Shown: positions 1,587 through 57,736 of the stretch, piece by piece
Layout of the letters: each line of letters opens with the position of its first letter
How positions within the stretch are numbered: position 1 is the first letter of the stretch
NCBI GenBank assembly: GCA_018711925.1
Contig: DVHR01000001.1
Span: 47 to 64,046, forward strand
Source of the DNA: Candidatus Coprenecus pullicola
GTDB lineage: Bacteria; Bacteroidota; Bacteroidia; Bacteroidales; UBA932
DNA: 64,000 nt
Direction of reading: 5' to 3'
Position numbers and translations under genes: made by a program
The notes under the pieces: generated by a model
What the model saw: the letters and a program-made list of their open reading frames with translations, nothing else
Database searches by the model: none
Told to the model about the DNA's origin: nothing

Positions 1587-3716
1587 TTAACGCATGTTGA
1601 GCAGCTCGATCATCTTGATGACTGCGGTGGAGATACGGGTACCGGGGCCGAAGATGGCGGCGGCACCTGCCTTGTAGAGGGCGTCGTAATCCTGAGGAGG
1701 AATGACACCGCCGACTACCACCATGATGTCCTCACGTCCGAGCTTCTTGAGCTCGTCGATGATCTGGGGCACGAGGGTCTTGTGACCGGCTGCAAGGGAG
1801 GATACGCCGACGATGTGAACGTCGTTCTCCACAGCCTGCTTTGCTGCCTCTGCAGGAGTCTGGAAGAGAGGGCCCATATCCACATCGAAGCCGCAGTCGG
1901 CATAACCGGTAGCCACAACCTTGGCTCCACGGTCGTGTCCGTCCTGACCCAGCTTGGCTATCATGATACGGGGCTGACGGCCTTCCTTCTTCGCGAACTC
2001 GGCAACCATCTCCTTGGCCTTCTCGAACTCGCTGTCATTCTTGACCTCTGAAGAGTAAACACCTGTATTCATACGTATAACTGCTTTATATCTTCCTACT
2101 ACTTTCTCGCATGCATCCGAAATCTCACCGAGAGTGGCGCGGTTGCGTGCGGCCTCGACTGCGAGCTCGAGCAGGTTGCCGCTCTTGGTCTCGACAGCCT
2201 TGGTGATGGCATCCAGAGAAGCCTGGACAGCGGCATTGTCACGGTTGGCACGAAGCTCCTTAAGACGGGCGATCTGGGACTCGCGTACCTTGGTATTGTC
2301 GATGTCGAGAATCTCGATGGGATCCTCCTTGTCCAGACGGTACTCATTGATACCGATAATCTTGTCCACACCTGAGTCGATACGGGCCTGCTTGCGTGCG
2401 GCGGCCTCCTCGATACGGAGTTTGGGGATACCGGTCTCGATAGCCTTGGCCATACCGCCGAGCTTCTCGATCTCCTGGATGTGCTCCCATGCCTTGTGGG
2501 CGATCTGGTCAGTCAGGTACTCTACGTAGTAGGAACCTGCCCAAGGATCTATGCCGCGGCAAACGTTGGTCTCCTCCTGGATGTAGATCTGGGTGTTACG
2601 TGCGATACGGGCGGAGAAGTCGGTAGGCAGGGCGATAGCCTCGTCGAGGGCGTTGGTATGCAGGGACTGGGTATGTCCGAGTGCGGCACCCATGGCCTCG
2701 ATACATGTCCTGGCCACGTTGTTGAAGGGATCCTGCTCGGTCAGGGACCAGCCGGAAGTCTGGCAGTGGGTCCTCAGTGAGAGGGACTTGTTGCTCTTAG
2801 GATTGAACTGCTTTACAATCTTGGCCCAGAGCATACGGGCTGCACGCATCTTGGCGATCTCCATGAAGTGGTTCATGCCGATGGCCCAGAAGAAGGACAG
2901 ACGGGGAGCGAAGGCATCCACGTCGATGCCGGCCTTGATACCTGTACGCAGGTACTCCAGACCGTCAGCCAGAGTATAGGCCATCTCGATGTCGCAGGTA
3001 GCACCGGCCTCCTGCATGTGGTAGCCGGAGATGGATATCGAGTTGAACTTGGGCATGTACTTGGAGGTGTAGGCGAAGATGTCACCGATAATCCTCATGG
3101 AGAACTCGGGGGGATAGATGTAGGTGTTGCGGACCATGAACTCCTTGAGGATATCGTTCTGGATGGTACCCTGCATCTCCTCGAGCTTGGCACCCTGCTC
3201 CTGGGCTGCCACGATGTAGAAGGCCAGGATAGGCAGAACGGCTCCGTTCATGGTCATGGACACTGACATCTTGTTCAGAGGTATCTGGTCGAAGAGCACC
3301 TTCATGTCCTCTACACTGCAGATGGACACACCGGCCTTGCCGACGTCACCCACTACTCTGGGATGGTCAGCGTCGTAGCCTCTGTGTGTTGCCAGGTCGA
3401 AGGCAACGGAAAGTCCCTTCTGTCCGGCAGCGAGGTTCCTGCGGTAGAATGCATTGGATTCCTCGGCCGTGGAGAATCCGGCATACTGACGGATGGTCCA
3501 GGGCCTCATCACGTACATGGTGCTGTAAGGTCCGCGGAGGAAAGGAGGAAGGCCTGCTGCATAGTTCAGGTGCTCCATTCCCTCATTGTCCTTGGGAGTG
3601 TAGATCTCCTTCACGCCGATGTGCTCCGGAGTCTCCCAAATCTGCTGTGAAGCAGCTGCCTGCGCGCATCCTGCGGCGGCATTGTCAAACTGTATGTCTT
3701 TAAAATTAGGACGCAT
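1587..3716 (-). CDS. mutB: Methylmalonyl-CoA mutase, large (catalytic, B12-binding) subunit
   Basis: 709 aa. Mutase barrel signature [22 protein letters not shown] and a C-terminal B12 domain with DxHxxG ([12 protein letters not shown]). Confidence 0.95.
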
Positions 3717-9762: not shown

Positions 9763-11352
9763 ATGAAAAGATTTATCATCGCCGCAGCAGTCTGTACAGT
9801 CATAATGGGCTGCGAGAAAAATACCGGCAAAGAAGATTCCGTGGACATTCCCTTGACAATCACAGTCAGCGACAACGGATTTTCCATGGAAGACGGGACC
9901 TATTCTAACAACAGGGCATTCTCAGCAGGAGACCGTATCGGTCTGTTCGCCTTGATGAACGGAGAGATACTGGAAGGCTTCAATAACATCTGCCTCACCG
10001 CATCAGGCACCGGCGACGCCATTGTATGGCAAGCCGCGGATCCGGAAATGCTGTTCCCCTCAGGAGCCGAGTACTATGCTTACTGGCCTTATCAGGAGAC
10101 ATTGCCTGCATCAGTAGACCTTACGGCATCTGATGCCGCAGGCTTTTTCTCAATGATAAGCGAGGCCTGGCCTGTAGCGTCCGACCAGAGCGGAGACGGA
10201 TTCGACTCCTCCGACCTGCTTATAGGCAGGGCAGCTCCGGCGGACAACAGTCTCAATCTCGACATGTCACATGCCATGGGGCTTGTTGAGATAAGCCTTC
10301 CGGGGACATTCTACACATTCACCAACACGGACTACGACATCCCTGACTATTCGTTGAGCGGTCTCAGAATCTCTTTTGACTCAAAGATTCCCAAAAGTAA
10401 AAACGGGAGACTTCTTTTGGTCGTAGAACCGGGTGCCTTCTCCATCCCATGCACATACTCCGGTGAGTCCAAAACCTATGACGGCAATGCTGAATCCGGG
10501 AAATGCACTTCCTTCTCCGAAGGCGACCCGACTGTCATAGAGCACAATCTCCAGATAGGTGACTTCTTCCTCGCGGACGGGAACCTGCTCTCAAAGGACG
10601 CTCCGGCATCCGAAGTAGGCTCCGCCAATGTAATAGGGCTTGTATGCCAGATCGACCCGGAAAGAATCGGCAACGGTGAAAAAGAAGCACTCGGAGGGAC
10701 AGCCCACGCTCTGGTCCTTGCGACCTGGAGTGCCAGATATGGTGGATACTTCTGCTGGTATAAAGACTACTCGTCAGGAAATTACGAGAGGGATGAATCC
10801 GAAATAGGCTTTACCAGCATACCCGAGCTTACAGACCCGCAAGAGCTTTACAGTCTCGCCATAGCTGACATAGAGGGTTACGCGAACTACAGTCTGCTCG
10901 TCTCAGAGAGAGCAGCCGATGTCGAAGCCGGGAACTATCCCGGATTCAAGGCCGTAGGCAACTTTGCAAATGAGGTCGGAGGTCCGGCAGAAGGCATGAC
11001 AACAGGCTGGTTTATGCCGGCCGGAGGCCAGTTGCTGGACGCCATCAGCAATCTTACCGGCCTGCAGTTTGACGAGTCCAATGTACAGGCCAGTTCAGCA
11101 GTCGGAGGCTGGGACGGATGCCTGTCCTGGATGGAGATGGGTACTGTGGCGTTCTTGATGAACAGCGCCATGGAGAAGGTCAGCTTCTCCAACAAGATAA
11201 TATTCGCTGATTCCGGCAACGGAATACAGATAGCAGCACAGTCCTCTCCCACAAACTACCGTTACATAGATTTCGCGGACGGCGGATGGATTGAATATCT
11301 GCACTTCAGAAAAGAGACAGGCTCAACGGTAAGACCCATGCTGGCTTTCTAA
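9763..11352 (+). CDS. Fimbrillin-like (Mfa-like) lipoprotein with a C-terminal DUF1566-like region
   Basis: Lipobox IMGC. The N-terminal FSAGDRIGLFA motif is typical of fimbrillin-like family proteins. The C-terminal GWFMPAGGQLLDAI resembles the DUF1566 motif. The family call is from memory. Confidence 0.65.
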   Translation: MKRFIIAAAVCTVIMGCEKNTGKEDSVDIPLTITVSDNGFSMEDGTYSNNRAFSAGDRIGLFALMNGEILEGFNNICLTASGTGDAIVWQAADPEMLFPSGAEYYAYWPYQETLPASVDLTASDAAGFFSMISEAWPVASDQSGDGFDSSDLLIGRAAPADNSLNLDMSHAMGLVEISLPGTFYTFTNTDYDIPDYSLSGLRISFDSKIPKSKNGRLLLVVEPGAFSIPCTYSGESKTYDGNAESGKCTSFSEGDPTVIEHNLQIGDFFLADGNLLSKDAPASEVGSANVIGLVCQIDPERIGNGEKEALGGTAHALVLATWSARYGGYFCWYKDYSSGNYERDESEIGFTSIPELTDPQELYSLAIADIEGYANYSLLVSERAADVEAGNYPGFKAVGNFANEVGGPAEGMTTGWFMPAGGQLLDAISNLTGLQFDESNVQASSAVGGWDGCLSWMEMGTVAFLMNSAMEKVSFSNKIIFADSGNGIQIAAQSSPTNYRYIDFADGGWIEYLHFRKETGSTVRPMLAF

Positions 11353-11382
11353 AGGCATCCAACAAACTCAAACGACAATCTT

Positions 11383-11416
11383 AAGGGGCTGCGTCACAAC
11401 AGCCCCTTTCTTTTTT
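11383..11416 (+). terminator. Rho-independent terminator
   Basis: AAGGGGCTG-cgtcacaa-CAGCCCCTT followed by TCTTTTTT. Confidence 0.75.
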
Positions 11417-11477
11417 AACCCATCTTTCCGCGAGCCATTTTGCAGGCCGTATCTGTTCCATTAGTTCATTCGCTGTC

Positions 11478-11665
11478 ACTTTTACAATGTCCAGCACATC
11501 GTTCAAATGTATTTTTCTTATTATCAAGCATATACATTTTAGTAACTTGCTGGACTTCGTACATTTCGCCACAAAACCACCATATTACACCGAGTCCAGC
11601 AGACATCTTTTTTCTGGGCGCTTGATTATCAACCACTTCTCTAATCCACTCCTGCTGGACTCCTC
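11478..11665 (+). repeat. Structured intergenic repeat, diverged copy 1 (core module)
   Basis: Aligns without indels to 26547-26735 and to the reverse complement of 41318-41506. It shares TTTTACAATGTCCA, the AAATGTAT/ATACATTT arms and the three 9-mers TTGCTGGAC (11547), GTCCAGCAG (11594) and CTGCTGGAC (11652). Confidence 0.75.
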
Positions 11666-11720
11666 TAGACGGGCAAACTGAACACGAACGTTATGGACGG
11701 CTACTCCGCAGATGGCCAAT

Positions 11721-11762
11721 AAAAAAGCACAGCCCATTCGGGAAAACCGGAATGGACTGTGC
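11721..11762 (-). terminator. Rho-independent terminator of the minus-strand lipoprotein genes
   Basis: The minus strand reads GCACAGTCCATTCC-ggttttccc-GAATGGGCTGTGC followed by TTTTTT. Confidence 0.75.
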
Positions 11763-11792
11763 AGATTATTCAGACTGGTCAGTAGCCTACCG

Positions 11793-13730
11793 TCATTTCG
11801 ACAACAATACCGGTGCTGCGGATGGACCGTTCATAAGATCCACCAGATCCTCAATAGGACCCACGTCCGTAGTTAGTGCCTGTACGAAAGTCCTGCTGAC
11901 AGGTCCCCAGACACCTGCTGCGTCATCAGCCCACGTCACGAATGTGTAATCATAGTAGTCCGTATCATAATACTTGTAAGGAACAACAATATGAGTGGTT
12001 GTATGATCTGTAACCTCTACCGTAAAAGGATTCGTCGGCAGCCAGCTCATAAGATCGTCGTCAGTCTTATACTCCTCCTCTGGATTAGAGTAGTTTCCGA
12101 CAAGGTTGCTGTTATAATAGCAGTGTACGGCTTCCTCGGAAATCGTCACTTTGAATACGGCTAAGGCATTTCCGGAAACTGATGCGCTGCTTTCAGCGAA
12201 AAGTCCGGCCTCCAGAGCCTGATCTCCGTCGTAAATTCCCACCAGAGCATTGGAGAATATAGCTCCTGACTGCTCTTCAACCGTTGTGCTTGCTTCTTCC
12301 GTCACTTCAGCATTGCCTGGCACTGCGTCATTGGATATAGCCACGACTGCTATCACATAGTCGGTCTCGGGAGTAAGGCCCGTAGCCTCAAAGTGCTCGT
12401 ATGTTCCCCTATAGCATACCGACGAGACTGCGTCTGTCATAGTATAACCGGGGTTGAAATCGATATTGAGATCATAATTGCTTTGAACGGCGGCTATTAC
12501 TTCCTTCTGCGCCTTTTCCCAAGTGTACTCCGCTTTGGGGAGGACTACCGGCAGGTAGTAAATGGCAGCGCATTCCTCCGTAGGATGGACCTCAAAGCCC
12601 AGTCTCTTTGCAGTAGCTACATTGACGACAATATCCGCTTTAAACTCATCAGGCTTAATACTGTGACCTGTATTAAAGGCCTCAAGCTCACAGCTGCTGG
12701 TAATGCCCATGCCGGGAGTGTACCCGAATGCGAAAAGATAATACCTGCTGTCGGAATTCACGTCGAAATCCGGAATATCATAAGGTCCGGTATAAAGCCC
12801 CATGCCCTGATCAAGATATGCGCCCTGATTGGTCACATACATCTCGGCGATTGCGTCCGCGTCATCCTCACTGAGATCAGGATAGTTTGTAGAAGGCTGG
12901 CACAGCCATACATATGTTGCCTCATTGTCTGACGGCACCACCGACACATGCGCTGTTGTCGCTGTAACATCCGAGACAGAAAGAGTGAACGTCAGCTCAA
13001 ATTCCTCTGCGGTGACGGCATTTTCCTTAGCAATGCCTGTCTGAAGCGAGCCGTCTGAGGCTGAAAGTCCCATTACCGTCAGCAGATACTCTGTCTGCGG
13101 CTCAAGGCCTGTGATACTTCCTGTCCTCGTACCGGTAAACATATTTGCTGAAAGATAATCCTCCAGACTGCCTCCGGCCGCCTCGGTTATCTTCTCCAGT
13201 ACAGCCGCATGCAGCTCCTCATCCGAAGATGACGCGTATGAGGCCGGAAGCGCGGCCACATAATAAGGCTGGGTATCCACACTCGGGACCACACGCCATG
13301 CGATGGCTTCCGATGTCGCACCTGTTACAGTAAGCTCAAAGGTACATTCCGCCTCCAAGGTACTGGCCTCGACGGTAGCTATCTCGGAATACAGGTCTCC
13401 ATTGGCAGCCACTACTGCAAAATAATAATCAGTAGACGGTTCCAGACCCGTAACCTCAACATCCCCGCCAGGTACCTCCACCTGCGTACCGGCACTCAGC
13501 AGTCCCTTGGCAGAAGGCACTGACTGCAAGTCCTTTATCTGCATATACGCAAGTTCTGTCGCTCCCTCGGAGCTTATTCTTAAAGTTATGGATGAGGCAT
13601 CAGACGACACCGCCTCCACCGATACGGTCGGTGCAGAGCCCTGCTCATCCTTGTTACAAGAGGACAACAGCGCTGCCAGGACAACAGCACCCGACAGCAC
13701 GGACATTCTAAAAAAATCTTTTCCTTTCAT
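11793..13730 (-). CDS. Lipoprotein with repeated Fn3-like domains (unknown function)
   Basis: 645 aa. Lipobox LLSSC followed by NKDEQ. Fn3-like repeat ends in GLEPSTDYYFAVVAANGDLYSEIATVEASTLE. It is a paralog of 30418-31953. Confidence 0.75.
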   Translation of the reverse strand: MKGKDFFRMSVLSGAVVLAALLSSCNKDEQGSAPTVSVEAVSSDASSITLRISSEGATELAYMQIKDLQSVPSAKGLLSAGTQVEVPGGDVEVTGLEPSTDYYFAVVAANGDLYSEIATVEASTLEAECTFELTVTGATSEAIAWRVVPSVDTQPYYVAALPASYASSSDEELHAAVLEKITEAAGGSLEDYLSANMFTGTRTGSITGLEPQTEYLLTVMGLSASDGSLQTGIAKENAVTAEEFELTFTLSVSDVTATTAHVSVVPSDNEATYVWLCQPSTNYPDLSEDDADAIAEMYVTNQGAYLDQGMGLYTGPYDIPDFDVNSDSRYYLFAFGYTPGMGITSSCELEAFNTGHSIKPDEFKADIVVNVATAKRLGFEVHPTEECAAIYYLPVVLPKAEYTWEKAQKEVIAAVQSNYDLNIDFNPGYTMTDAVSSVCYRGTYEHFEATGLTPETDYVIAVVAISNDAVPGNAEVTEEASTTVEEQSGAIFSNALVGIYDGDQALEAGLFAESSASVSGNALAVFKVTISEEAVHCYYNSNLVGNYSNPEEEYKTDDDLMSWLPTNPFTVEVTDHTTTHIVVPYKYYDTDYYDYTFVTWADDAAGVWGPVSRTFVQALTTDVGPIEDLVDLMNGPSAAPVLLSK

Positions 13731-41236: not shown

Positions 41237-41715
41237 TCACAGTCTCCACCCCCGGTGGGGAAAGTGCCGGGAATTTCCGCGAAAATGGTGCACTTTCCCC
41301 CGGGGCATGAGACTTCTGGGGAGGTCCAGCAGGGCCTGCTTGGGAAAGTGCCTAGTATACAGGCACTCTGAAAAAGAGCATCTGCTGGACCTGGGGTGAA
41401 ATGGCGGTTTTATGGCAAAAAGCGGGCAGTCCAGCAAATCGCCAGATTGTATGCGCCTAACAATCAGTGTGATACATTTTAGCAGCATGTTGGACATTGT
41501 AAAAGTACTAAAGTCAGCCTTTGGGGAAACGACACTTTTCCCCGTGTGAGCGTGGTGAAAATCCGGCAACGAGAAAAGACTAGCCGCCCTCGGCTCTAGA
41601 GGGAGGGACCCGCCGCGAAGCGGTGGGAGGGCCTGGTCTTTTCGACTGCTGGATTTTCATTAAAATGGGTGCAGGTGTACCGGTGTGGCTGGATTTCGGT
41701 TCACCTGCGGTGTGC
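41237..41715 (-). repeat. Right arm of the large inverted repeat (one hairpin unit, core module and structured module)
   Basis: Reverse complement of 26335-26818. It contains GGGGAAAGTG (41257) and CACTTTCCCC (41291), and the three 9-mers. Confidence 0.85.
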
Positions 41716-48862: not shown

Positions 48863-49201
48863 ATGGAAGATTACTTTAAGAATGTGGAATGCGCCGTTAC
48901 TGTGTGCGACACCGAGTGCGTAATCGTATACCAGAACGAGAAGTCCGTGGCAGTGAACGGAGACATGCGGGGCCGCTGCATGCTCGGCTGCCACAATGAC
49001 CGCTCCCGCGGCATAATCGCCCGCATCCTCACAGAAGGCATCACCAACTCGTACACCATCAGCAAGAAGGGCCAGCGCAAGATCATCCATCAGACCCCAT
49101 GGTACAAGGATGCCGCAGACGGCTCCGGCAAGACTGTCGCAGGCATCATCGAGCTTTCCATCGTCATCCCCGAGCGGATGCCCCACTACGACCGAGGCTA
49201 A
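48863..49201 (+). CDS. Small PAS-domain protein
   Basis: 112 aa. CAVTVCDTECVIVYQNEKS...GCHNDRSRGII is reminiscent of stand-alone PAS proteins. This is a call from memory only. Confidence 0.5.
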   Translation: MEDYFKNVECAVTVCDTECVIVYQNEKSVAVNGDMRGRCMLGCHNDRSRGIIARILTEGITNSYTISKKGQRKIIHQTPWYKDAADGSGKTVAGIIELSIVIPERMPHYDRG

Positions 49202-50094
49202 TCAGTTTGTGGCTATGGCAACGAACTCGGTAACTTACTACGGTGACAAAACATGTGAGGTCCGTGGTGGCTGACCACTGAGACGGAATATGAATATCCG
49301 CAAACTTACTCCATTCCCTGGCGGCACGTCTGTCTTTCAAGCCATCCTGCAGCATAGCAGTCACACATTCTGACAGCATGAAGACACAATGGACGCCACG
49401 TCAGGAATCCATGTTGCCGTGCATGTCACCCATAAAGCAGCCCACAGTTTATTAAGGCGCTGATATCCAAATCAATACCGTAAAATATGCTGCGCTATGG
49501 CCTGTTTTTTCAAGCCATAGCACAACCGGCACATTCAGAACACACTGATTAAAAGCGCTTTAAGCATAACGCCCTTGCCCTATGGTACACGGAAATAGAA
49601 TACGCCCGGCTTCCTTTAGCATTTAAGCTTAAGCCATCAGCTCAGGGATAGTTAGTAAAACTTATGGCAAGGAAGTATCTATTTTCTCTCAGATGTTTCC
49701 CAGGCATCCGGAAATTTGAAGCACCGGTGCGATCCATCGGAAATAGCATCTGATTTACAATAAGTTATATGACGTCCTGCACCACAGACAGGTTTTAAAA
49801 GGGCCTGAAGGGGCAACGTTTCCCGTAACTCATTGGTACTCAGAGAGGCTATTTGAAAGAGCGCACCGCCGCTTCAGTTTTTCACATTCGTGTTTGAGTC
49901 TCAGGCGAGCCAGGTGTCAAGAACGGCGATACTGTCGGAAGCCTCAATAGAATCAGCGATTTAGTACCGTCAGAGACATCTCACGGCATATTTCTTATTT
50001 GGAGAATGGATTTTAAATATCTACTTTAGCATCACCGTATTTATTGAGTACGGAAAACAACATTAATTTAACTTTAATCAATTTTTCTGGTATC

Positions 50095-50967
50095 ATGAAC
50101 GACAGATATGAGTTGAACAAAAACCTGGCCCAGATGCTCAAAGGCGGAGTAATCATGGACGTGACCACTCCTGAGCAGGCTAAAATCGCAGAACAGGCCG
50201 GAGCTGCGGCCGTAATGGCCCTGGAGCGTATCCCCGCGGACATCAGAGCCGCCGGAGGCGTATCCCGCATGAGCGACCCTAAGATGATACGCGGTATCCA
50301 GAACGCGGTCAGCATTCCTGTCATGGCAAAGGTCCGCATCGGACACTTCGTAGAGGCCCAGATACTCCAGGCCCTGGAGATCGACTACATAGACGAGAGC
50401 GAGGTGCTCTCTCCCGCTGACGGAGTCTATCACATCGACAAGACCAAATTCCGTGTACCGTTCGTCTGCGGAGCGAAGAATCTTGGCGAGGCCCTGCGCC
50501 GCATAGCAGAGGGAGCCTCGATGATCCGCACCAAGGGCGAGCCGGGCACAGGTGACGTAATACAGGCCGTGACCCACATGCGCAGCATGATGCGCGACAT
50601 CCGCCGTCTCCAGGCCCTGCCCGAAGACGAGCTGTACAACGAGGCAAAGGAGCTGGAAGTGCCCTACGACCTGGTCAAATACGTACACGAGAACGGCAAG
50701 CTGCCCGTTGTGAATTTCGCCGCAGGCGGAGTGGCCACCCCTGCTGACGCCGCCCTGATGATGCAGCTCGGAGCAGAGGGTGTCTTCGTAGGCTCAGGCA
50801 TCTTCAAGTCAGGCAACCCCGAGAAGAGAGCCAAGGCTATCGTCAATGCCGTGACCAACTACAATGACGCCGCCCTGCTGGCAGAAGTGTCCACAGACCT
50901 CGGCGAGGCAATGGTGGGCATCAACGAGGAGGAGATCACCATCCTCATGGCTGAGAGAGGCAAGTAA
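50095..50967 (+). CDS. pdxS: Pyridoxal 5'-phosphate synthase lyase subunit
   Basis: 290 aa counted from [23 protein letters not shown] (the track start at 50044 is a TTG extension). Contains [10 protein letters not shown] and [16 protein letters not shown]. Confidence 0.95.
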
Positions 50968-51636: not shown

Positions 51637-53232
51637 ATGATGAAATACCCGATAGGAATTCAGAGTTTTGAAAGAATTATCAAGGAAGGCTATGTCTATG
51701 TCGATAAGACAGAGCTGATTTACAAATTGATAAAAGGAGGCTCCATTTACTTCCTGAGCCGCCCGCGCAGGTTCGGCAAGAGCCTGCTGATGTCTACCAT
51801 TGAGAACTATTTCCACGGAAGAAAGGAACTGTTCAGTGGACTGGCCATGGAGGCGCTGGAGAAGGAGTGGCTGGAGTACCCGGTGTTCCATATCGACTTC
51901 AACGGCGGAAATTTCAAGGAAGCGGGGATTCTGGAGAGTGTTCTAGAAGATACAGTCTCGGCCTGGGAGAGGAAATATCCCCCTGCGGACAGATACACCG
52001 GCGCGGGAAGACGCTTCCAGGAAGTATTGCGGATTGCGCACGAACGCACTGGCCGCAGGTGCGTGGTGCTCATCGACGAATACGACAAGCCCCTGCTGGA
52101 CGTGCTGGAGACGGGACTCAACACTGTCATTGACGGGCAGGAAAGGCTGCTGGAGGAATGGCACAAGGATGTTCTGAGAGGCTTCTACTCGGTGTTCAAG
52201 GCCGCTGACGCCGACCTGCAGTTCGTGCTGCTCACTGGAGTCACAAAGTTCGCGCAGGTAAGCGTCTTCAGCGGGTTCAACCAGCCGAAGGACATCAGCA
52301 TGGACAGCCGGTACGACACGCTCTGCGGAATCACACAGGCTGAACTGGAAAGCTATTTCAAGGAACCGATAAGGGCAATGGCCGCGGTTGAAGGAATCAG
52401 TCCGCAGGAAGAAATTGACGTACTGAAGCACCGTTACGACGGATATCACTTCAGCACCGGCATGACGGACATTTACAACCCCTACAGTCTCCTCAACGCT
52501 TTCGACAAACTGGAAATCAGGAACTATTGGTTCGTCTCAGGCACCCCGGAGTACCTTATACGGCTGCTGTCACACAGTGAGGAGAATCTGGAAGATCTTG
52601 TCAATGCAGAGTATCCGCCGGAGGCTTTCGCCGACTACAAGGCCACGGCGGAGATGCCGCTCCCCATGATTTACCAGAGCGGATACCTGACCATCAAGGG
52701 ATATGACCGGGAGACCGAGCTGTTCAGGCTGGACTTCCCGAACGAGGAGGTACGCCGAGGATTCCTCGCCATGCTGGCTTCAGGATACATCAGCAGGTCC
52801 GGCGCAAGGATGGTAAGCTGGGCCGCAAATGTCCGGAACGCACTGAACAAGGGCAAAATCGATGGACTCAGGGAGCACTTGGAGTCCCTGCTGTCCGATA
52901 TACCGTACAGCATCCGGTGCAGCAGGGCTGACGGGGAGGCCAGGGAGAGGGATTTCCAGTACACTTTCTACCTCATATTCCGTATGCTCGGAGGATGGAA
53001 GGTATATGCCGAAAAAGCCTCGGGACAGGGCCGCGCCGACTGCGTCGTGGAGACAGACAGGTACGTCTACATCTTCGAGTTCAAACTGGACGGCACGGCG
53101 GAGGAGGCCCTGCGCCAGATAGAGGAGAAAGGCTACGACAGGCCCTATGCCGCCGACTCCAGGAAGGTATTCCGCATCGGTGCCTCTTTCTCCTCCGCCA
53201 CCGGCAACATCGGGGACTGGCAGACCGCTTAG
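51637..53232 (+). CDS. AAA-ATPase-like / PD-(D/E)XK (PDDEXK_9) family protein
   Basis: 531 aa counted from MMKYPIGIQSFERIIKEGYVYVDKT. Contains RPRRFGKSL and a C-terminal nuclease-like ADCVVETDRYVYIFEFK. Confidence 0.8.
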   Translation: MMKYPIGIQSFERIIKEGYVYVDKTELIYKLIKGGSIYFLSRPRRFGKSLLMSTIENYFHGRKELFSGLAMEALEKEWLEYPVFHIDFNGGNFKEAGILESVLEDTVSAWERKYPPADRYTGAGRRFQEVLRIAHERTGRRCVVLIDEYDKPLLDVLETGLNTVIDGQERLLEEWHKDVLRGFYSVFKAADADLQFVLLTGVTKFAQVSVFSGFNQPKDISMDSRYDTLCGITQAELESYFKEPIRAMAAVEGISPQEEIDVLKHRYDGYHFSTGMTDIYNPYSLLNAFDKLEIRNYWFVSGTPEYLIRLLSHSEENLEDLVNAEYPPEAFADYKATAEMPLPMIYQSGYLTIKGYDRETELFRLDFPNEEVRRGFLAMLASGYISRSGARMVSWAANVRNALNKGKIDGLREHLESLLSDIPYSIRCSRADGEARERDFQYTFYLIFRMLGGWKVYAEKASGQGRADCVVETDRYVYIFEFKLDGTAEEALRQIEEKGYDRPYAADSRKVFRIGASFSSATGNIGDWQTA

Positions 53233-53342
53233 AATGCGCAATTTGGACTTCGTCCACATATACTGTTGTGCCCCGGCAATTGCAAGTAAACTTGCATTGC
53301 TCTCGGCTTCTGCGTATATTCGCAGCCGCAAAAGGAAGCTAT

Positions 53343-54128
53343 ATGATAAAAGCACTGTTTTTCGACATAGACGGAACGCTGGTGAGCTTCAGGACACACT
53401 CAGTCCCGGACTCTACTGTAAAGGCTCTCGCCGAAGCTAAAAATAAGGGCATCAAAATATTCATCTCCACAGGCAGGCCCAGGCCGCTCATCAACAACCT
53501 GGAGCCTATAGAGGACCTGATAGACGGCTACATCACAGTCAACGGAGCGATATGCACTGTCGGATCAGAGACCGTCTCACGCAGTCCCATAGACCCCAAA
53601 GACGTAAAGGTCATCCTCAACGCTGCGGACCGGATGGACGTACCGGCCCTGATAGTCGGTGAGGACAGGGCTATCGTACACAACCACAAGCCCATTGTAG
53701 ACCGTATCTTCGGCGGGATGCTGGCCATAACCGGGATCGACCGGAACACCGCTACGGAACAGATGCTGACAGAGCCGATATACCAGATGACCCCGTTCTT
53801 CAACACAGCCCAGGAAGCGGAGGTGGCACGGCTGCTCCGTCACTCCGAATCCACCCGCTGGTGCGAATATTTCTCGGATATAATATCCTCCGATGCCGAC
53901 AAGGGAAGGGGGCTGGAAATCATAGCCGGACATGAGGGGCTGAGACTGGACGAATGCATGGCATTCGGAGACGGAGGCAATGATATCTCTATATTGAGAA
54001 AGGCCGGCACCGGAGTGGCCATGGGCAATGCCGGAGTAACGGTAAAGGCTGCCGCGGACTACGTGACCGACACCATAGACAGCGACGGGGTCGCCAACGC
54101 ACTCAGGCATTTCAAGGTAACAGCATAG
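53343..54128 (+). CDS. Cof-type HAD-IIB family hydrolase
   Basis: 261 aa counted from MIKALFFDIDGTL (the track ORF from 52995 overlaps the previous gene). GDGGND motif present. Confidence 0.85.
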   Translation: MIKALFFDIDGTLVSFRTHSVPDSTVKALAEAKNKGIKIFISTGRPRPLINNLEPIEDLIDGYITVNGAICTVGSETVSRSPIDPKDVKVILNAADRMDVPALIVGEDRAIVHNHKPIVDRIFGGMLAITGIDRNTATEQMLTEPIYQMTPFFNTAQEAEVARLLRHSESTRWCEYFSDIISSDADKGRGLEIIAGHEGLRLDECMAFGDGGNDISILRKAGTGVAMGNAGVTVKAAADYVTDTIDSDGVANALRHFKVTA

Positions 54129-54249
54129 TTTCCAGTCATCAGCGGGCGTGTCACCACGACGGGCATGGCTACAATAGTGAGATCCCGGCCGGAGTGACTG
54201 CTCGATTCCCAATCCAATAGTCATCAAAAGAAAAAAGCAAGCAAGGAAA

Positions 54250-55095
54250 ATGGACAACAAGAAAGATTTTGCGAAAGTATTCATGATCGCCGGCAGTGAG
54301 CCGCTCGGCTGCTGCGGTATCCAGGCAGACATCAAGGCCGTCTCGGCGTGCGGAGGATTCGCAGCCGGAGCCACCACCCTGCTGGTAGACATGAACACGA
54401 CTCACGTCAAGGGCATCCACACCATCCCGGTGGACATCATACTGAACCAGAGCCGGGACTTCCTGGACGACGTCGGAGCGGACTGCATCAAGACCGGTAT
54501 GCTGTACGAAAAGCAGATAGTGGAGGCTGTGGCAGGCCTGCTGCGGGAGTATCCCGACGTGCCGAAGGTCATCGACCCGGTGATGGTAGACTCTGGCGGC
54601 CGGGCACTCATCCTGCAGGAGTCGATAGACGCTTATCGCGCGCTGCTCTTCCCCCAGGCCGAGATCATCACTCCAAACATCCATGAAGCCCGCGTCCTGG
54701 CCGGCGAGACCATAACCCTCGACAAGGTGGACAGGCTCATCAGGAAGATAGCCGAGGCAGGCTGCTCCGTAATCATCAAGTCGATACCCGACGGGGAGAA
54801 TCTCATCGACGTACTCTACAACCGCCACAACGACACCATAAGACGATTCTCAAAACGTCACATAGACACCCGCAACGTCAACGGCACCGGCGACACATTC
54901 GGCTCGGCCATAGCCACCTACATTGCCAGAAAGTACGACCTTGACACAGCTGTGGAAAGGGCCGAGATATTCATCAACGAATCCATAGCCAACGGCTCCT
55001 GCTACCGCTTCGGGCCAGGCTACGGACCGGTACATCCGTTCTACCGCACGATAGACTTCTTCGAGAAGGAAGACAGGAGCTACTCCTTGAAATAG
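54250..55095 (+). CDS. thiD: Hydroxymethylpyrimidine/phosphomethylpyrimidine kinase
   Basis: 281 aa. Contains GIQADIKA, IKTGML and NGTGDTFGSAIA (ribokinase-like anion hole). Confidence 0.8.
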   Translation: MDNKKDFAKVFMIAGSEPLGCCGIQADIKAVSACGGFAAGATTLLVDMNTTHVKGIHTIPVDIILNQSRDFLDDVGADCIKTGMLYEKQIVEAVAGLLREYPDVPKVIDPVMVDSGGRALILQESIDAYRALLFPQAEIITPNIHEARVLAGETITLDKVDRLIRKIAEAGCSVIIKSIPDGENLIDVLYNRHNDTIRRFSKRHIDTRNVNGTGDTFGSAIATYIARKYDLDTAVERAEIFINESIANGSCYRFGPGYGPVHPFYRTIDFFEKEDRSYSLK

Positions 55096-57491
55096 ACCCT
55101 CTTGACCCTGCGTGAAACGCTGGTAAGCACCTCATAGGGAATAGTGCCGAGCTTGTCGGAAAGTTCGGTGACGGGGATATCGTTTCCGAAAATCTCAACC
55201 TCGTCTCCCACTTGCGCACCCGTACCCGTCACATCCAGCATGCAGGCATCCATGCAGATATTGCCTAAAACAGGTACCCTCCTGCCGCACACCATCATCT
55301 CTCCCACCCCGCAGCTCAGATGACGGTCCAGTCCGTCGGCATAGCCTACCGGTATCACCGCGACATCCGATATACGGTCTACACGGCCCTTGCGCCCGTA
55401 GCCTACCGTCTGCTCAGGCGTGATTCGACGTATCGACGCAATATGAGTCTTGAACGTGCTGACAGGCCTCAGACCCGGCAGATCCCCTATGCCGTACAGA
55501 CCGATACCCATGCGCACCATGTCGAAGGCATACTGAGGAAAACGCTCTATGCCGGCACTGTTGAGTATGTGCCGCAGTATCTTATAGGGAAAATGCGGCT
55601 GCACCATTCCGGTCATCTCCTCAAAAAGCCTGATCTGCCCCAAAGTAAACTCATCCTCTGAAGGATCATCAGCCGCCGCCAGATGAGAGAACATACTGCG
55701 CAGCATCACCGTCCGCCGCCCTTTCATGAAACGCAGCAGCTCCGGTATGTCCGGCATGTCGAGTCCCGAGCGGTTCATCCCGGTGTTGAGCTTGAGGTGC
55801 ACAGGATAATCCTCTATGCCATGGCGGGCCAGGACAGCCTCGAAATCACGCAACAGCCCGAGAGAATATATCTCCGGCTCCAGTGAGAACTCTATCATCT
55901 GGTCAAATGCCTCCGGCTCAGGATTCATCACCGCTATCGGAACAGTAATGCCCCTTGAGCGCAATTCCACGCCTTCGTCAGCATACGCCACCATCAGATA
56001 GTCGGCTCCACTGTACTGCAGCTGCGAGGCTATCTCCCCTGCCCCGCTGCCATAAGAGAAGGCTTTCACCATGACGGCAAGCCTCGTACCTTTCGGCACC
56101 CTGTTGCGCAGCAGGTTGAAATTGCCAGCCAGGGCATCCAGATCCACCTCCAGGACAGTGGTGTGCGACTGACGGGCGAGAAAGCCGCCAATGTACTCGA
56201 AACGGAACTGCCTTGCTCCCTTGATGAGGATACCCATATCGCGATAATCTTCCCTCTTCTCACCGGCCAGGAATGCCTCAGTCGTATCATAGAACCTGGT
56301 CTGCGGCATATCGAAAAGTTCCCTGTAGCCGGACAGACACGGACCGACCCCTACAAAACGTGTAATTCCGGCATTACGGAGTTGAGAGGCCACTTCCCTG
56401 TACACCGAGCCGTCCCCCCCGTCCACATCCACGAAGTCGGACAGGATCACCGCCTTGGAACGGGCATTGTCCTGCACAGCCAAAGCCCTCAGGGCCAACG
56501 CAAACGAGGCCGGATCGGAATTATAGTAATCTTTAATGAGAGTACAGCCGTTGATGCCCTCACGTATCTCCATGCGCATGGCCACAGGCTGCAGGTCCGC
56601 CACTCTCGGAGCCAGCTGCTCCAATGTATAGCCGTGACAAAGCATGAACGTCACCGCCGTCATACAGTTCTCGAAAGAAGCCTCGTCGGCAAAGGGAATA
56701 CGCAACCTGCCCCGCTCCCCGGTACAGCCGGCATCCGGCACGGGACTGTCCACGCCAACCTCGATCTCCACATCCACCGCACCATCCACGGGAGTGCTGC
56801 CCAGCACCCTCACATCCGCCTCCGGAGACATTCCCCAGAGAAATACACGGGTCCGGGAACCGCATTGCTCCAGAATTATCCGCGCAGGCATCCCCTCCCG
56901 GCATATCACCGTCCTGCATCCCTCGAAAAGAAGAGCCTTCTCCCGCATTTTCGCCTCGGGCGAGGAAAAATTCTCGCTGTGCGCATCCCCTAAATGGGTG
57001 AATACCCCGATATCCGGTCGGATGATATCATGCAGCCTGAGCATCTCCCCCGGTCTTGAAATTCCGGCCTCAATAAGAGCGATACTGCTGTCGGGGGATA
57101 TTTCCAGGATGGACAATGGTACTCCGACCTGTGAATTGTAGCTGCGGGGACTGCGGCTCACCTGCATGTCCTCGCCAAGGAGCTGGGCTATCCACTCCTT
57201 GACCACAGTCTTGCCGTTGCTGCCCGTAATGGCGGTCACCTCCGCCCGGCACTGCCGCCTGTACTGCGCGGCATCCTCCTGCAGGGCCTCCAATGTATCT
57301 TCCACATATCTTACCGACGCACCGTCAAGGGCATCGAAGTCCGGTCTGCGCTCGCTCAGCACGAAATGCCTTACACCGCGGCCGTACAGCCGCTCCACAT
57401 AGTCATGCCCGTCATTGTTCTGCCCCTTGATGGCATAGAAAACAGTCTCGGCAGGACGGGTAACGCCTCGGCTGTCCACAGATATAATCAT
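55080..57491 (-). CDS. Bifunctional UDP-MurNAc-tripeptide--D-Ala-D-Ala ligase / alanine racemase
   Basis: 803 aa. The N-terminal half is a Mur ligase (ITGSNGKT). The C-terminal half is Alr with PLP-Lys context (MVKAFSYGSGAGE). This fusion is typical of Bacteroidota. Confidence 0.9.
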   Translation of the reverse strand: MIISVDSRGVTRPAETVFYAIKGQNNDGHDYVERLYGRGVRHFVLSERRPDFDALDGASVRYVEDTLEALQEDAAQYRRQCRAEVTAITGSNGKTVVKEWIAQLLGEDMQVSRSPRSYNSQVGVPLSILEISPDSSIALIEAGISRPGEMLRLHDIIRPDIGVFTHLGDAHSENFSSPEAKMREKALLFEGCRTVICREGMPARIILEQCGSRTRVFLWGMSPEADVRVLGSTPVDGAVDVEIEVGVDSPVPDAGCTGERGRLRIPFADEASFENCMTAVTFMLCHGYTLEQLAPRVADLQPVAMRMEIREGINGCTLIKDYYNSDPASFALALRALAVQDNARSKAVILSDFVDVDGGDGSVYREVASQLRNAGITRFVGVGPCLSGYRELFDMPQTRFYDTTEAFLAGEKREDYRDMGILIKGARQFRFEYIGGFLARQSHTTVLEVDLDALAGNFNLLRNRVPKGTRLAVMVKAFSYGSGAGEIASQLQYSGADYLMVAYADEGVELRSRGITVPIAVMNPEPEAFDQMIEFSLEPEIYSLGLLRDFEAVLARHGIEDYPVHLKLNTGMNRSGLDMPDIPELLRFMKGRRTVMLRSMFSHLAAADDPSEDEFTLGQIRLFEEMTGMVQPHFPYKILRHILNSAGIERFPQYAFDMVRMGIGLYGIGDLPGLRPVSTFKTHIASIRRITPEQTVGYGRKGRVDRISDVAVIPVGYADGLDRHLSCGVGEMMVCGRRVPVLGNICMDACMLDVTGTGAQVGDEVEIFGNDIPVTELSDKLGTIPYEVLTSVSRRVKRVYFKE

Positions 57492-57501
57492 GGGCGCAAA
57501 G

Positions 57502-57639
57502 TTAGTGCTTTTTGCGGAAGACTATCCTGAGACCAAGCAGGAAAATCAGGCCTCGGAAACACAGTTCCGCGCACATGGCTGTCCAGACCCCGGCCAGTCC
57601 CATTGCCGGAGCCAGCAGCCAGGCCAGCGACTGACGCAC
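57502..57639 (-). pseudogene. Remnant of the last TM helices of a MATE-type efflux transporter
   Basis: A 45-codon open frame with no start reads VRQSLAWLLAPAMGLAGVWTAMCAELCFRGLIFLLGLRIVFRKKH*. It is bounded upstream by an in-frame TGA. The resemblance to MATE C-termini is from memory. Confidence 0.4.
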
Positions 57640-57736
57640 TCATCTCTCATTTCTCTCACAGCACACGTTTTATTTGATTTTCACCACAAAATAGGTATTG
57701 AATGCTGAACTTACAACAAAACAAGCCCTTTTTCGC

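What the first reader, a model, noticed from the sequence alone, without database searches (positions are those of the whole stretch)
11478..11665. Dispersed ~190-nt element in 3 copies, built on one 9-mer used three times, with two covarying base pairs
The copies are 11478-11665 (+), 26547-26735 (+) and 41318-41506 (-). Copy 1 differs from the other two at roughly a third of positions, yet it aligns with no indel. The conserved islands are TTTTACAATGTCCA, the hairpin arms AAATGTAT-N20-ATACATTT, and the 9-mers TTGCTGGAC / GTCCAGCAG / CTGCTGGAC. Those 9-mers sit at 26616, 26663, 26721 and at 11547, 11594, 11652. The middle 9-mer can pair with either flanking one, giving mutually exclusive stems as in an attenuator or switch. 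The distal stem is AGGTCCAGCAG/CTGCTGGACCT in the 26.6-kb copy and GAGTCCAGCAG/CTGCTGGACTC in copy 1. Two adjacent pairs therefore changed compensatorily (A-T to G-C and G-C to A-T). The enclosed loop is exactly 49 nt in both copies despite heavy sequence change. All three copies sit between convergent genes. This pattern fits a structured RNA (possibly 3'UTR-derived) or a DNA/protein-recognition module that I cannot assign to any family I know.
Basis: seen in the sequence. Interest (0 to 1): 0.72.

Follow-up and report, generated by a model that had tools for sequence, protein, structure and literature searches.

The report
Modular hairpin repeat between genes
The three copies are real, but they look like one non-coding cassette of a patchwork DNA repeat limited to a few gut Rikenellaceae, not a switch-like regulatory RNA.

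Summary
There are three copies and no others (11478-11672 +, 26547-26741 +, 41310-41506 -). Copy 1 differs from copy 2 at 58 of 195 positions with no indel.

The anatomy needs correcting. The motif occurs four times per copy, giving two 67-nt palindromic units (GTCCAGCA...TGCTGGAC) joined by a 38-nt linker.

The element is non-coding. It has no Rfam match and none in phage or viral collections. It occurs in six Bacteroidales (Rikenellaceae-type) species genomes, at 1-4 copies each, and in gut metagenomes.

Twenty-five distinct copies show no supported covariation. The proposed alternative stem costs 6-7 kcal/mol.

The 8-mers are invariant. Copies lie between genes in every orientation.

The element is one cassette of a larger mosaic. 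A close relative has the same site without it. There the insertion is bounded by a 13-nt direct repeat.

A neighbouring 78-nt module, bounded by inverted repeats with the same CCAGCA core, occurs flipped between identical flanks.

Best reading: a recombination-prone, MITE/BIME/NIME-like DNA repeat whose 8-mers are recognised as DNA. The acting protein and any host function are unknown.

The parts
11478..11672 (+). Copy 1 ('type A' core). Sub-parts: invariant 5' island ACTTTTACAATGTCCA (11478-11493); palindromic unit HA (11489-11555, 67 nt); linker (11556-11593); palindromic unit HB (11594-11660, 67 nt).
26547..26741 (+). Copy 2 ('type B' core). Sub-parts: HA 26558-26624; linker 26625-26662; HB 26663-26729.
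41310..41506 (-). Copy 3 (type B core, reverse strand). Sub-parts: HA 41429-41495; linker 41391-41428; HB 41324-41390.
41291..41532 (-). The 242-nt stretch present in the window but absent at the same site in close relatives L031-L033. It reads TCGTTTCCCCAAAGGCTGACTTTAGTAC + core + CTCCCCAGAAGTCTCATGCCCC + one copy of the direct repeat ACGGGG(A/G)AAAGTG.
26387..26493 (+). Module M1. A 78-nt G+C-rich interior (26402-26479) lies between the inverted repeats ATGAAAAATCCGGCA (26387-26401) and TGCTGGAATTTCAT (26480-26493). It folds as a branched hairpin. In other loci with the same flanks it is found reverse-complemented.
41555..41660 (-). Module M1 upstream of copy 3, in the same orientation relative to the core as at copy 2.
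26494..26546 (+). Module PRE. It is the leader of type-B cores and contains the mini-hairpin GGAGGAAAATGTCGTTTCCCC, a shortened M7-type hairpin.
26747..27119 (+). M7 array: 3.5 tandem copies of a 107-nt unit. Each unit holds the hairpin GGGGAAAGTG-N24-CACTTTCCCC plus a 63-nt G+C-rich spacer. One M7 hairpin follows every type-B core.
27177..27575 (+). 52-nt tandem array (7.7 copies) at the far end of the copy-2 intergenic mosaic.
41257..41309 (-). Single M7 hairpin following copy 3. It is orthologous to the first M7 of the L031 array (shared GTGCACCATTTTCGCG variant).

Best explanation
**What it is.** The 190-nt element is a non-coding DNA cassette. It belongs to a modular, recombination-prone family of intergenic repeats found in a small clade of gut Bacteroidales (Rikenellaceae-type).

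**Shown**
- Each copy consists of two 67-bp palindromic units. Each unit is bounded by the invariant inverted 8-mers GTCCAGCA / TGCTGGAC. A 38-bp linker joins the two units.
- In type-B copies the core sits in a fixed order of modules: M1, PRE, core, M7 hairpin or hairpins, then tandem arrays.
- The core-bearing stretch is present at one site in the window and absent from the same site in a close relative. There it is bounded by a 13-nt direct repeat that is the left arm of the M7 hairpin.
- The neighbouring M1 module is bounded by 14-15-nt inverted repeats with the same CCAGCA/TGCTGG core. It occurs in both orientations between otherwise identical flanks.
- Modules are swapped, duplicated and truncated between loci and genomes.
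- Gene order differs between relatives at the window's element sites.

**Inferred mechanism**
- The 8-mers are kept because their sequence is recognised as DNA. The agent would be a recombinase or transposase encoded elsewhere, or hairpin/cruciform formation that drives template switching.
- Cassettes are gained, lost, flipped and homogenised by recombination at these short repeats and between paralogous copies.
- Any RNA effect is secondary. Read-through transcripts would fold into two stable hairpins, which could block or protect 3' ends.
For: **Non-coding**
- Mismatches show no codon periodicity: 21/17/20 by codon position.
- Orthologues and relatives carry indels of 1, 2 and 10 nt.
- The only open frame has in-frame stops in L006, L008, L014 and L002b. 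Entropy is flat across codon positions.

**Palindromes kept by sequence, not by compensation**
- The core bases of all four 8-mers (GTCCA/TGGAC of the first unit, TCCAGCA/TGCTGGA of the second) are invariant in 25 distinct copies, including lineages about 30% diverged.
- Covariation is not above shuffles.
- HA and HB are exactly 67 nt in four divergent copies.

**Modular mosaic**
- blastn maps the modules across 30 loci.
- M1 is reversed in L003, L005/L018, L013, L024 (two copies) and L045 (two copies). The boundaries are exact and the flanks identical to forward-orientation loci L002b and L023.

**Filled site against empty site**
- The window's copy-3 site compared with L031-L033, where the flanking SpoIIE protein is 97% identical.

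**Recombination among copies**
- L001's copy at the copy-2 locus carries a copy-3-type PRE.
- L042 has one intact core. L044, at the same locus, has two tandem cores that lack the 3' 9-mer.
- L030 joins the copy-2 left flank to the L003 right flank.
- L031 carries the 3' end of the AMP-binding gene beside SpoIIE.

**Context and distribution**
- Always intergenic, with no fixed orientation to genes.
- Neighbouring genes are functionally unrelated.
- Found in six species genomes at 1-4 copies each, in 17 metagenome contigs, and as 89 spurious-ORF protein clusters.
- Absent from viral contigs and phage records. In plasmid records only a 34-nt M1 match to Azospirillum was found.
- Absent from more distant relatives of the flanking genes.
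Against: - No recombinase, transposase or RAYT gene was found among the 17 window ORFs scanned. No autonomous partner element is known.
- HA and HB themselves were never seen inverted in the 32 copies found in the first 29 loci and the window, nor in the 6 copies fetched later. Only M1 flips, so the shared CCAGCA core may reflect common descent rather than a shared enzyme.
- The 13-nt direct repeat at the filled site is itself part of a repeated hairpin. Unequal homologous recombination explains the difference as well as transposition does.
- Copy number is far below that of typical MITE or REP families.
- The linker and the HB loop are more conserved among type-B copies than the HA interior. 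This could reflect an RNA or protein-binding function not captured here.
- Between L006 and L007, flanking-gene third codon positions are 63% identical while the intergenic region is about 92% identical. That leaves room for selection on the non-coding sequence.
Confidence: 0.55

Rival explanations
1. It acts as RNA. It would be an independently transcribed small RNA or a read-through 3'/5' UTR element. Its two long hairpins would serve as a processing site, a barrier to exonucleases or a transcription terminator/insulator, as reported for REP and Correia elements.
For: - Both strands fold well below shuffled controls: z = -4.2 to -6.5.
- The linker and the HB loop are highly conserved among type-B copies.
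- The intergenic region is more conserved than flanking third codon positions between L006 and L007.
- A perfect Bacteroidota -7 box (TAnnTTTG, from my own knowledge of the consensus) is read as TACATTTG or TACGTTTG on the minus strand in 15 of 25 copies.
- M1 is a strong hairpin with A- and T-tracts on either side, so it could terminate transcription in both directions.
Against: - No supported covariation.
- G-T and A-C mismatches are mixed, so no strand is preferred.
- No -33 element at the right spacing. No T-run follows HA or HB (and reading of the sequence).
- Copies lie in every orientation, including between divergent genes and antisense to both neighbours.
- The copies in L044 persist without the 3' arm of HB.
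- No Rfam hit.
Confidence: 0.25
2. It is an RNA switch or attenuator. The middle 9-mer would pair alternately with the upstream or the downstream 9-mer.
For: The middle motif is complementary to both flanking motifs.
Against: - A fourth motif upstream satisfies the first partner, so the minimum-energy fold is two independent hairpins.
- Forcing the alternative pairing costs +7.4 kcal/mol in copy 1 and +6.2 in copy 2. Its ensemble probability is about 0.
- There is no conserved downstream gene and no fixed orientation.
- No covariation.
Confidence: 0.03
3. It encodes a small protein of about 60 aa starting at the conserved ATG in TTTTACAATGTCC, for example a type I toxin.
For: That frame is open in all three window copies, and the ATG context is invariant.
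Against: - Frame-breaking indels in L009 (1 nt), L017 (2 nt) and L008 (10 nt).
- In-frame stops in L006, L008, L014 and L002b.
- No excess of third-position change.
- The public-database hits to the ORF carry no Pfam domain and vary in length with the flanking repeats.
Confidence: 0.02
4. It is a functionless relic. Local duplications of an intergenic palindrome would have been spread and homogenised only by ordinary homologous recombination between close relatives, with no dedicated enzyme and no host role.
For: - Low copy number.
- Copies cluster within 30 kb in the window.
- The identity profiles show that these genomes exchange DNA in patches. This alone could explain the high identity of copies across genomes.
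Against: - The four 8-mer cores and the 16-nt 5' island are invariant across lineages about 30% diverged elsewhere. That is hard to get without constraint.
- HA and HB keep exactly 67 nt.
- The one sizeable indel in the linker is 10 nt, about one helical turn.
Confidence: 0.15

Closest known systems
BrickBuilt, a MITE with an internal minisatellite in Porphyromonas gingivalis (Bacteroidales); PMC4596501
   Same: - Same bacterial order.
- Strictly intergenic and limited in host range.
- Built from leader and tail parts plus a tandem array whose copy number varies between loci.
- Parts can be present or missing.
- Small inverted-repeat ends.
- Mis-annotated as hypothetical genes. Here, the ORFs at 26743-27615 and in L031 are examples.
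   Different: - BrickBuilt has 19 copies per genome and a 23-nt repeat unit. Here there are 1-4 cores per genome and units of 107 and 52 nt.
- No sequence comparison with BrickBuilt was made.
- BrickBuilt has experimentally shown bidirectional promoter activity. Nothing of the kind was tested here.
REP/BIME elements of Enterobacteria and Pseudomonas (from my own knowledge)
   Same: - Extragenic palindromic units combined in mosaics with other short motifs.
- Units occur in either orientation.
- They form hairpins in transcripts.
- They are substrates for rearrangement.
   Different: - REP units are 20-40 nt with a conserved 5' GTAG. They are present in hundreds of copies and are linked to RAYT (Y1 HUH) transposases.
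- Here the units are 67-78 nt, there are 1-4 copies, no GTAG head and no RAYT was seen.
Neisseria intergenic mosaic elements (NIME: RS units flanked by dRS3 inverted repeats) and Correia elements (from my own knowledge)
   Same: - Cassette-like units of 50-150 bp, each bounded by the same short inverted repeat and lined up in intergenic arrays.
- Hotspots of recombination and rearrangement.
- Correia elements are about 100-155-bp hairpin-forming repeats with terminal inverted repeats.
   Different: - No sequence relation.
- dRS3 is a phage integration target. Correia elements duplicate TA and number in the hundreds.
- None of these features was found here.
Bacteroidales invertons (invertible promoters; PMC11892184, PMC11602134)
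   Same: M1 is a segment bounded by 14-15-nt inverted repeats that is found in both orientations between identical flanks.
   Different: - The segment is only 78 bp and G+C-rich. By eye it carries no Bacteroidota promoter motif, and it looks nearly the same to transcription in either orientation.
- No recombinase gene lies nearby.
- The 190-nt core itself was never seen inverted.

Membership tests
Any Rfam RNA family | Covariance-model match at or near the curated gathering score | tested here: not met
   The whole window gives 0 hits at gathering threshold. Permissive scans of both loci give only chance-level eukaryotic miRNA and similar matches, E of 0.2 or higher.
Structured RNA (riboswitch, attenuator, sRNA) in general | Base pairs maintained by compensatory change across diverged copies | tested here: not met
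   On 25 distinct copies the covariation score is 0.081 against 0.074 in shuffles (32 of 500 reach it). Three pairs have double changes against 3.4 in shuffles. The double changes in the distal stem come from one lineage.
Riboswitch/attenuator | Fixed position and orientation upstream of a regulated gene, plus competing folds of similar energy | tested here: not met
   Contexts are convergent, divergent and same-direction on either strand. Neighbouring genes are unrelated. The alternative fold costs +6.2 to +7.4 kcal/mol.
MITE | Terminal inverted repeats at the ends of the mobile unit | tested here: inconclusive
   Each 67-nt unit and M1 end in inverted (G/T)TCCAGCA. By eye, the 242-nt stretch that differs between the filled and empty site has no terminal inverted repeat.
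MITE | Target-site duplication flanking an insertion, with an empty site in a relative | tested here: inconclusive
   A filled/empty pair was found with the 13-nt direct repeat ACGGGGRAAAGTG. The repeat is the arm of a recurring hairpin, so unequal recombination is equally possible. No empty site was found for copy 1.
MITE | Autonomous partner IS with matching ends, and many copies per genome | tested here: not met
   There are 1-4 copies in each of six species genomes. No transposase was found among the 17 window ORFs scanned. A genome-wide search for a partner element was not possible.
REP/BIME | Palindromic units of 20-40 nt with a conserved GTAG head, hundreds of copies, and an associated RAYT gene | tested here: not met
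   Unit sizes are 67 and 78 nt, there is no GTAG head, and copy number is low. Presence of a RAYT elsewhere in the genome was not testable.
Inverton (site-specific invertible segment) | The same segment found in both orientations between inverted repeats with unchanged flanks | tested here: met
   Met for the neighbouring M1 module only: L002b and L023 are forward, L003 and L024a are reverse, with identical flanks and exact boundaries. Not met for the 190-nt core: none of the 32 copies or the 6 fetched later is inverted.
Inverton (site-specific invertible segment) | A promoter inside the segment and a recombinase gene nearby | tested here: not met
   By eye there is no TAnnTTTG motif in M1. 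No recombinase domain in the scanned ORFs. Within-population flipping is not testable without reads.
Intrinsic terminator | G+C-rich hairpin immediately followed by a T-run | tested here: not met
   The scan flags nothing at HA or HB. It flags only the separate terminator of the upstream gene at 11383-11408 and a sub-hairpin of M1.
Small protein / type I toxin gene | Reading frame preserved, with a third-position excess of substitutions | tested here: not met
   Frame-breaking indels, in-frame stops and flat per-codon-position entropy.

The most novel reading that the evidence does not exclude
The mosaic could be a small non-coding cassette system. The constant-length M7 hairpins and the (G/T)TCCAGCA inverted repeats would be recombination sites read as folded or duplex DNA by an unidentified enzyme. 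That enzyme would insert, excise and flip 70-240-bp non-coding cassettes, including a 78-bp 'micro-inverton' far shorter than known invertible segments. The core would be a cassette with a host function still to be found. The same-orientation 8-mers are 105 bp apart, the arrays have periods of 107 and 52 bp, and the one sizeable linker indel is 10 bp. All of these are near multiples of the helical repeat and would fit a protein-wrapped DNA architecture.
Probability: 0.12. Interest if true: 0.7.

Novelty: new member of a known kind. Interest (0 to 1): 0.36.

Why it matters
- If the reading is right, this is a further example of a modular intergenic repeat in Bacteroidales. That kind is poorly catalogued in this order compared with Proteobacteria.
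- In practice, the family generates spurious gene calls: 89 'protein' clusters in public databases. It may also cause assembly chimeras and rearrangement breakpoints in gut metagenome-assembled genomes.
- The flipped 78-bp M1 module would be unusually small for a programmed inversion if the flipping is active, so it deserves a read-level test.
- The finding does not open a long-standing question. No host function was shown.

Tried and rejected
- **Coding reading.** Rejected on codon-position statistics, indels and stops.
- **Rfam.** Gathering and permissive scans gave nothing. There are no tRNA or tmRNA genes in the window.
- **Strand assignment from G-U against A-C mismatches.** Mixed, so no call was possible.
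- **Homology between HA and HB interiors.** Not significant, z about 0. Only the ends and the length match.
- **Genome-wide signal for the 8-mer (uptake-sequence or Chi-like).** Only 7 copies lie outside the elements in 64 kb against about 2.5 expected, so the 8-mer is not a pervasive motif.
- **Purifying selection at the copy-2 locus.** I first inferred it from 96-100% element identity against 69-72% third-position identity in the AMP-binding gene. I withdrew it. The identity profile shows patchy divergence within an otherwise 95-99% identical background, and the downstream genes are 94-97% identical at third positions.
- **Bacteroidota promoter motifs.** By eye, only a partial -7 box on the minus strand, with no -33 element. 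The sigma-70 scan found none.
- **Empty-site search for copy 1 through homologues of the Mfa-like gene.** The relatives have a different gene order and no modules, so there was no informative comparison.
- **Exact-protein look-up of the AMP-binding gene to see M1 polymorphism within a species.** It returned only one distinct place.
- **A preprint that might bear on such elements** (10.64898/2026.09.22.753630) could not be opened.

Full report
**1. The observation**

Reading the three stretches confirms the copies at 11478-11672 (+), 26547-26741 (+) and 41310-41506 (-). Copy 1 and copy 2 differ at 58 of 195 positions without a gap. Copies 2 and 3 differ at 15. A profile built from 25 copies finds exactly these three in the window. 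The only other hits are self-matches of the palindromes on the opposite strand.

GTCCAGCA occurs 17 times in 64 kb against 2.5 +/- 1.7 expected, and ten of these are in the three copies. The inner arms are AAATGTAT-N19-ATACATTT, not N20, and are exact only in copies 1 and 2.

The main correction concerns the motif count. The conserved '5' island' TTTTACAATGTCCA already contains a first GTCCA(G/A)CA. Each copy therefore has four motifs in alternating orientation and folds as two separate hairpins, HA and HB. From first to last motif base, HA and HB are both exactly 67 nt in four divergent representatives. Their interiors are not significantly alike.

**2. Not a gene**

One frame is open in all three window copies. 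However, mismatches fall 21/17/20 over the codon positions. Entropy is flat across codon positions. Four relatives have in-frame stops. L009, L017 and L008 carry indels of 1, 2 and 10 nt.

**3. Relatives**

- A pattern scan of 185,579 species genomes found the element in six. Four are uncultured Bacteroidales bins (BRZ_BB_bin35, BRZ_BR_bin117, BRZ_L_bin42 and OZ006987). The others are 'Alistipes sp.' UMGS654 and Candidatus Coprenecus stercorigallinarum, which is Rikenellaceae. Each carries 1-4 copies. Two further hits were chance matches.
- A metagenome scan gave 17 further real loci, several labelled human gut.
- Viral contigs and phage records gave none. Plasmid records gave only a 34-nt partial match.
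- The spurious ORF across copy 3 matches 89 'protein' clusters in public assemblies. The family is therefore commoner in metagenomes than exact patterns show.
- The window is syntenic with contig CALUTU010000005.1. L009 is the orthologue of copy 1 and L002 the orthologue of copy 2.
- More distant relatives of the flanking genes carry no module.

**4. Is it a structured RNA?**

- Rfam gives nothing at gathering or permissive thresholds.
- RNAalifold on 25 distinct copies gives covariation terms of only -0.85 kcal/mol (+ strand) and -1.12 (- strand).
- For the four-helix structure, 90.8% of cells pair against 26-43% when partners are slid, so the palindromes are real. Shuffling partners among sequences gives 90.6%. 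The covariation score is 0.081 against 0.074, reached by 32 of 500 shuffles.
- G-T and A-C mismatches occur on both sides, so no strand is favoured.
- The proposed alternative pairing of the middle 9-mer costs 6.2-7.4 kcal/mol and has negligible ensemble probability.
- In about 15 independent loci the element lies between convergent, divergent and same-direction genes, co-oriented or antisense. Neighbouring genes are unrelated: Mfa-like fimbrillin, Fn3 protein, AMP-binding enzyme, metallophosphoesterase and SpoIIE phosphatase.

What stands out instead is invariance. The core bases of all four 8-mers and the 16-nt 5' island are unchanged in 25 copies whose other positions diverge by up to 30%. 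This points to recognition of sequence rather than of shape.

**5. The element is one cassette of a larger mosaic**

Copies 2 and 3 share about 415 nt. Mapping modules over all loci and reading the flanks gives a constant order for type-B copies:

1. An M7-like hairpin (M0).
2. M1.
3. PRE.
4. The core (HA, linker, HB).
5. AGAAGTCTCATGCC.
6. One to eight M7 units of 107 nt, each with the hairpin GGGGAAAGTG-N24-CACTTTCCCC.
7. At the copy-2 locus, a 52-nt array.

Type-A copies (copy 1, L009, L017/L020) are the core with only a degenerate M7. Fifty-seven distinct M7 hairpins all have the same length.

**6. Evidence for DNA-level dynamics**

(a) *M1 inversion.* M1 has a 78-nt G+C-rich interior between ATGAAAATYCCRGCA and TGCYGGAWTTTCAT. 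It is reverse-complemented in L003, L005/L018, L013, L024 (two copies) and L045 (two copies). L002b/L023 (forward) and L003/L024a (reverse) have the same sequence on both sides, and the boundaries fall exactly at CCAGCA | ... | TGCTGG. M1 with its repeats folds as a branched hairpin of about 110 nt, -50.6 kcal/mol, z = -4.

(b) *Filled and empty site.* L031-L033 encode a SpoIIE protein 97% identical to the window's. They have M0 and M1 followed directly by eight M7 units and no core. The window has 242 extra bases at that point (41291-41532, - strand), bounded by the direct repeat ACGGGG(A/G)AAAGTG. The next M7 carries the same rare variant in both genomes, which supports orthology of the site.

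(c) *Module exchange and breakage.*
- L001's copy at the copy-2 locus has a copy-3-type PRE.
- L042 and L044 are the same locus. L042 has one intact core. L044 has two tandem cores whose HB has lost its 3' 9-mer.
- L030 encodes the identical AMP-binding protein, but there the element continues into the DHFR flank seen in L003. This is either a rearrangement or an assembly chimera.
- L031 carries a copy of the 3' end of the AMP-binding gene next to SpoIIE.
- The right flank of copy 3 differs from that of L031.
- Copy 1 lies where gene order differs from that of relatives L038 and L040.

(d) *HA and HB do not invert.* They were never inverted in the 32 copies found or the 6 fetched later.

**7. 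Conservation**

At the copy-1 locus the whole 440-nt intergenic region is 96% identical to its orthologues, against 87-94% at third codon positions. The differences cluster in the 5' half of the HA interior.

At the copy-2 locus I first read 96-100% element identity against 69-72% third-position identity as selection. Sliding identity shows that these genomes are mostly 95-99% identical with diverged patches, and the downstream genes are 94-97% identical at third positions. I therefore withdraw that inference.

Between L006 and L007 (different species) the flanking gene is 63% identical at third positions while the 600-nt intergenic region is about 92% identical. This includes unique, non-repeat parts. 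Some constraint or recent exchange is likely, but it is not specific to the core.

**8. Mechanism**

*Shown:* the element is non-coding. It is palindromic with invariant ends. It is modular and gained or lost as a block. A neighbouring module flips. Modules recombine between copies.

*Inferred:* the 8-mers are DNA recognition or recombination sites, either for an enzyme encoded elsewhere or for hairpin-driven template switching. The family spreads and is homogenised by recombination. Folding in read-through RNA is a side effect. No recombinase or transposase domain was found in 17 window ORFs, so the acting protein is unknown.

*A weak extra hint for a DNA-level constraint:* same-orientation 8-mers are 105 bp apart, the one sizeable linker indel is 10 bp (L008), and the arrays have periods of 107 and 52 bp. 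All are near multiples of the helical repeat.

**9. Comparison with known kinds**

The closest analogues are:
- BrickBuilt of Porphyromonas gingivalis, which is intergenic only, built from leader and tail parts plus a minisatellite, and has parts that are facultative (PMC4596501).
- REP/BIME, NIME/dRS3 and Correia elements (from my own knowledge).
- For M1 only, Bacteroidales invertons (PMC11892184).

The family fails or leaves open the defining tests for each of these. Copy number is low, no partner transposase or RAYT is known, the target duplication is ambiguous, and the flipped segment holds no promoter. I therefore file it as a new member of the general kind 'intergenic mosaic palindromic repeat'. 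I do not file it as a member of any named family.

**10. Verdict**

The RNA-switch interpretation is not supported. The DNA-module alternative is the better fit. Interest is moderate to low. It would rise if read-level data show that the 78-bp M1 module flips actively.

Noticed in passing
window 26387-26493 and 41555-41660; L003, L005, L013, L024, L045: A 78-nt G+C-rich module (M1) lies between 14-15-nt inverted repeats and folds as a branched hairpin. In different genomes it occurs in both orientations between identical flanks. This would be a 'flip-flop' segment far shorter than usual invertible elements.
   Followed up: partly
window 26417-26450: The M1 interior CCCTCCCACCGCTTCGCGGCGGGTCCCTCCCTCT is 34/34 identical to intergenic DNA on three Azospirillum plasmids/chromids (NZ_CP032322, NZ_CP032324, NZ_CP032348). 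There it also lies within a cluster of G+C-rich hairpins. Unexplained.
   Followed up: partly
window 26747-27119 and 27177-27575: Two tandem arrays (107 nt x 3.5 and 52 nt x 7.7) fill most of a 1.3-kb intergenic gap. The 290-aa ORF at 26743-27615 (-) across them has no Pfam match and is almost certainly spurious. The equivalent ORF in L031 was called as a gene in a public assembly.
   Followed up: partly
all loci; e.g. window 26757-26800, L031 3548-4334: Fifty-seven distinct copies of the M7 hairpin (GGGGAAAGTG.ACC...CCGGCACTTTCCCC) all have the same length. The loop varies between GTTTT and AAAAT types. Array length ranges from 1 to 8 units between close relatives.
   Followed up: partly
L030 4193-4654 against window 26347-27675 and L003: A contig encodes the identical AMP-binding protein, but the element there joins to the DHFR flank seen in L003. 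This is either a real rearrangement at the repeat or a metagenome assembly chimera.
   Followed up: partly
L031 about 3330-3400: About 40 nt of the 3' end of the AMP-binding gene plus its downstream hairpin are duplicated beside the SpoIIE gene in a close relative. Flanking DNA has been copied along with the mosaic.
   Followed up: no
window 9763-13730 against L038 and L040: In the window the Mfa-like and Fn3 genes converge on copy 1. In more distant relatives the Fn3 gene lies upstream of the Mfa-like gene on the same strand. Copy 1 therefore sits at a change in gene order.
   Followed up: partly
L044 728-1160 against L042 2552-2752: These are the same locus in two assemblies. One has a single intact core. 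The other has two tandem cores whose second hairpin lacks its 3' 9-mer and is fused to M7 spacer sequence.
   Followed up: partly
window 11500-11525 against L009 and L020: Seven of the roughly 17 substitutions in the 440-nt intergenic region between orthologues fall within about 25 nt of the 5' half of the first hairpin. This looks like a local cluster, such as a conversion patch or template switch, rather than scattered point mutation.
   Followed up: no
window 24655-26346 against L002 and L011: Identity along the AMP-binding gene swings between 58% and 99% in 100-nt windows, while the genes downstream of the element are 94-97% identical at third positions. This indicates patchy recombination between these genomes.
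   Followed up: partly
window 26285-26323: A 15-nt tandem repeat (2.6 copies) lies inside the 3' end of the AMP-binding gene and encodes a KDSKS-type repeat tail.
   Followed up: no
window 1-64000: No tRNA or tmRNA gene and no Rfam family at gathering threshold anywhere in the 64 kb. There are other long intergenic gaps at 49201-50095, 53232-54250 and 57491-58319. A RhuM-family gene lies at 60664-61527.
   Followed up: no
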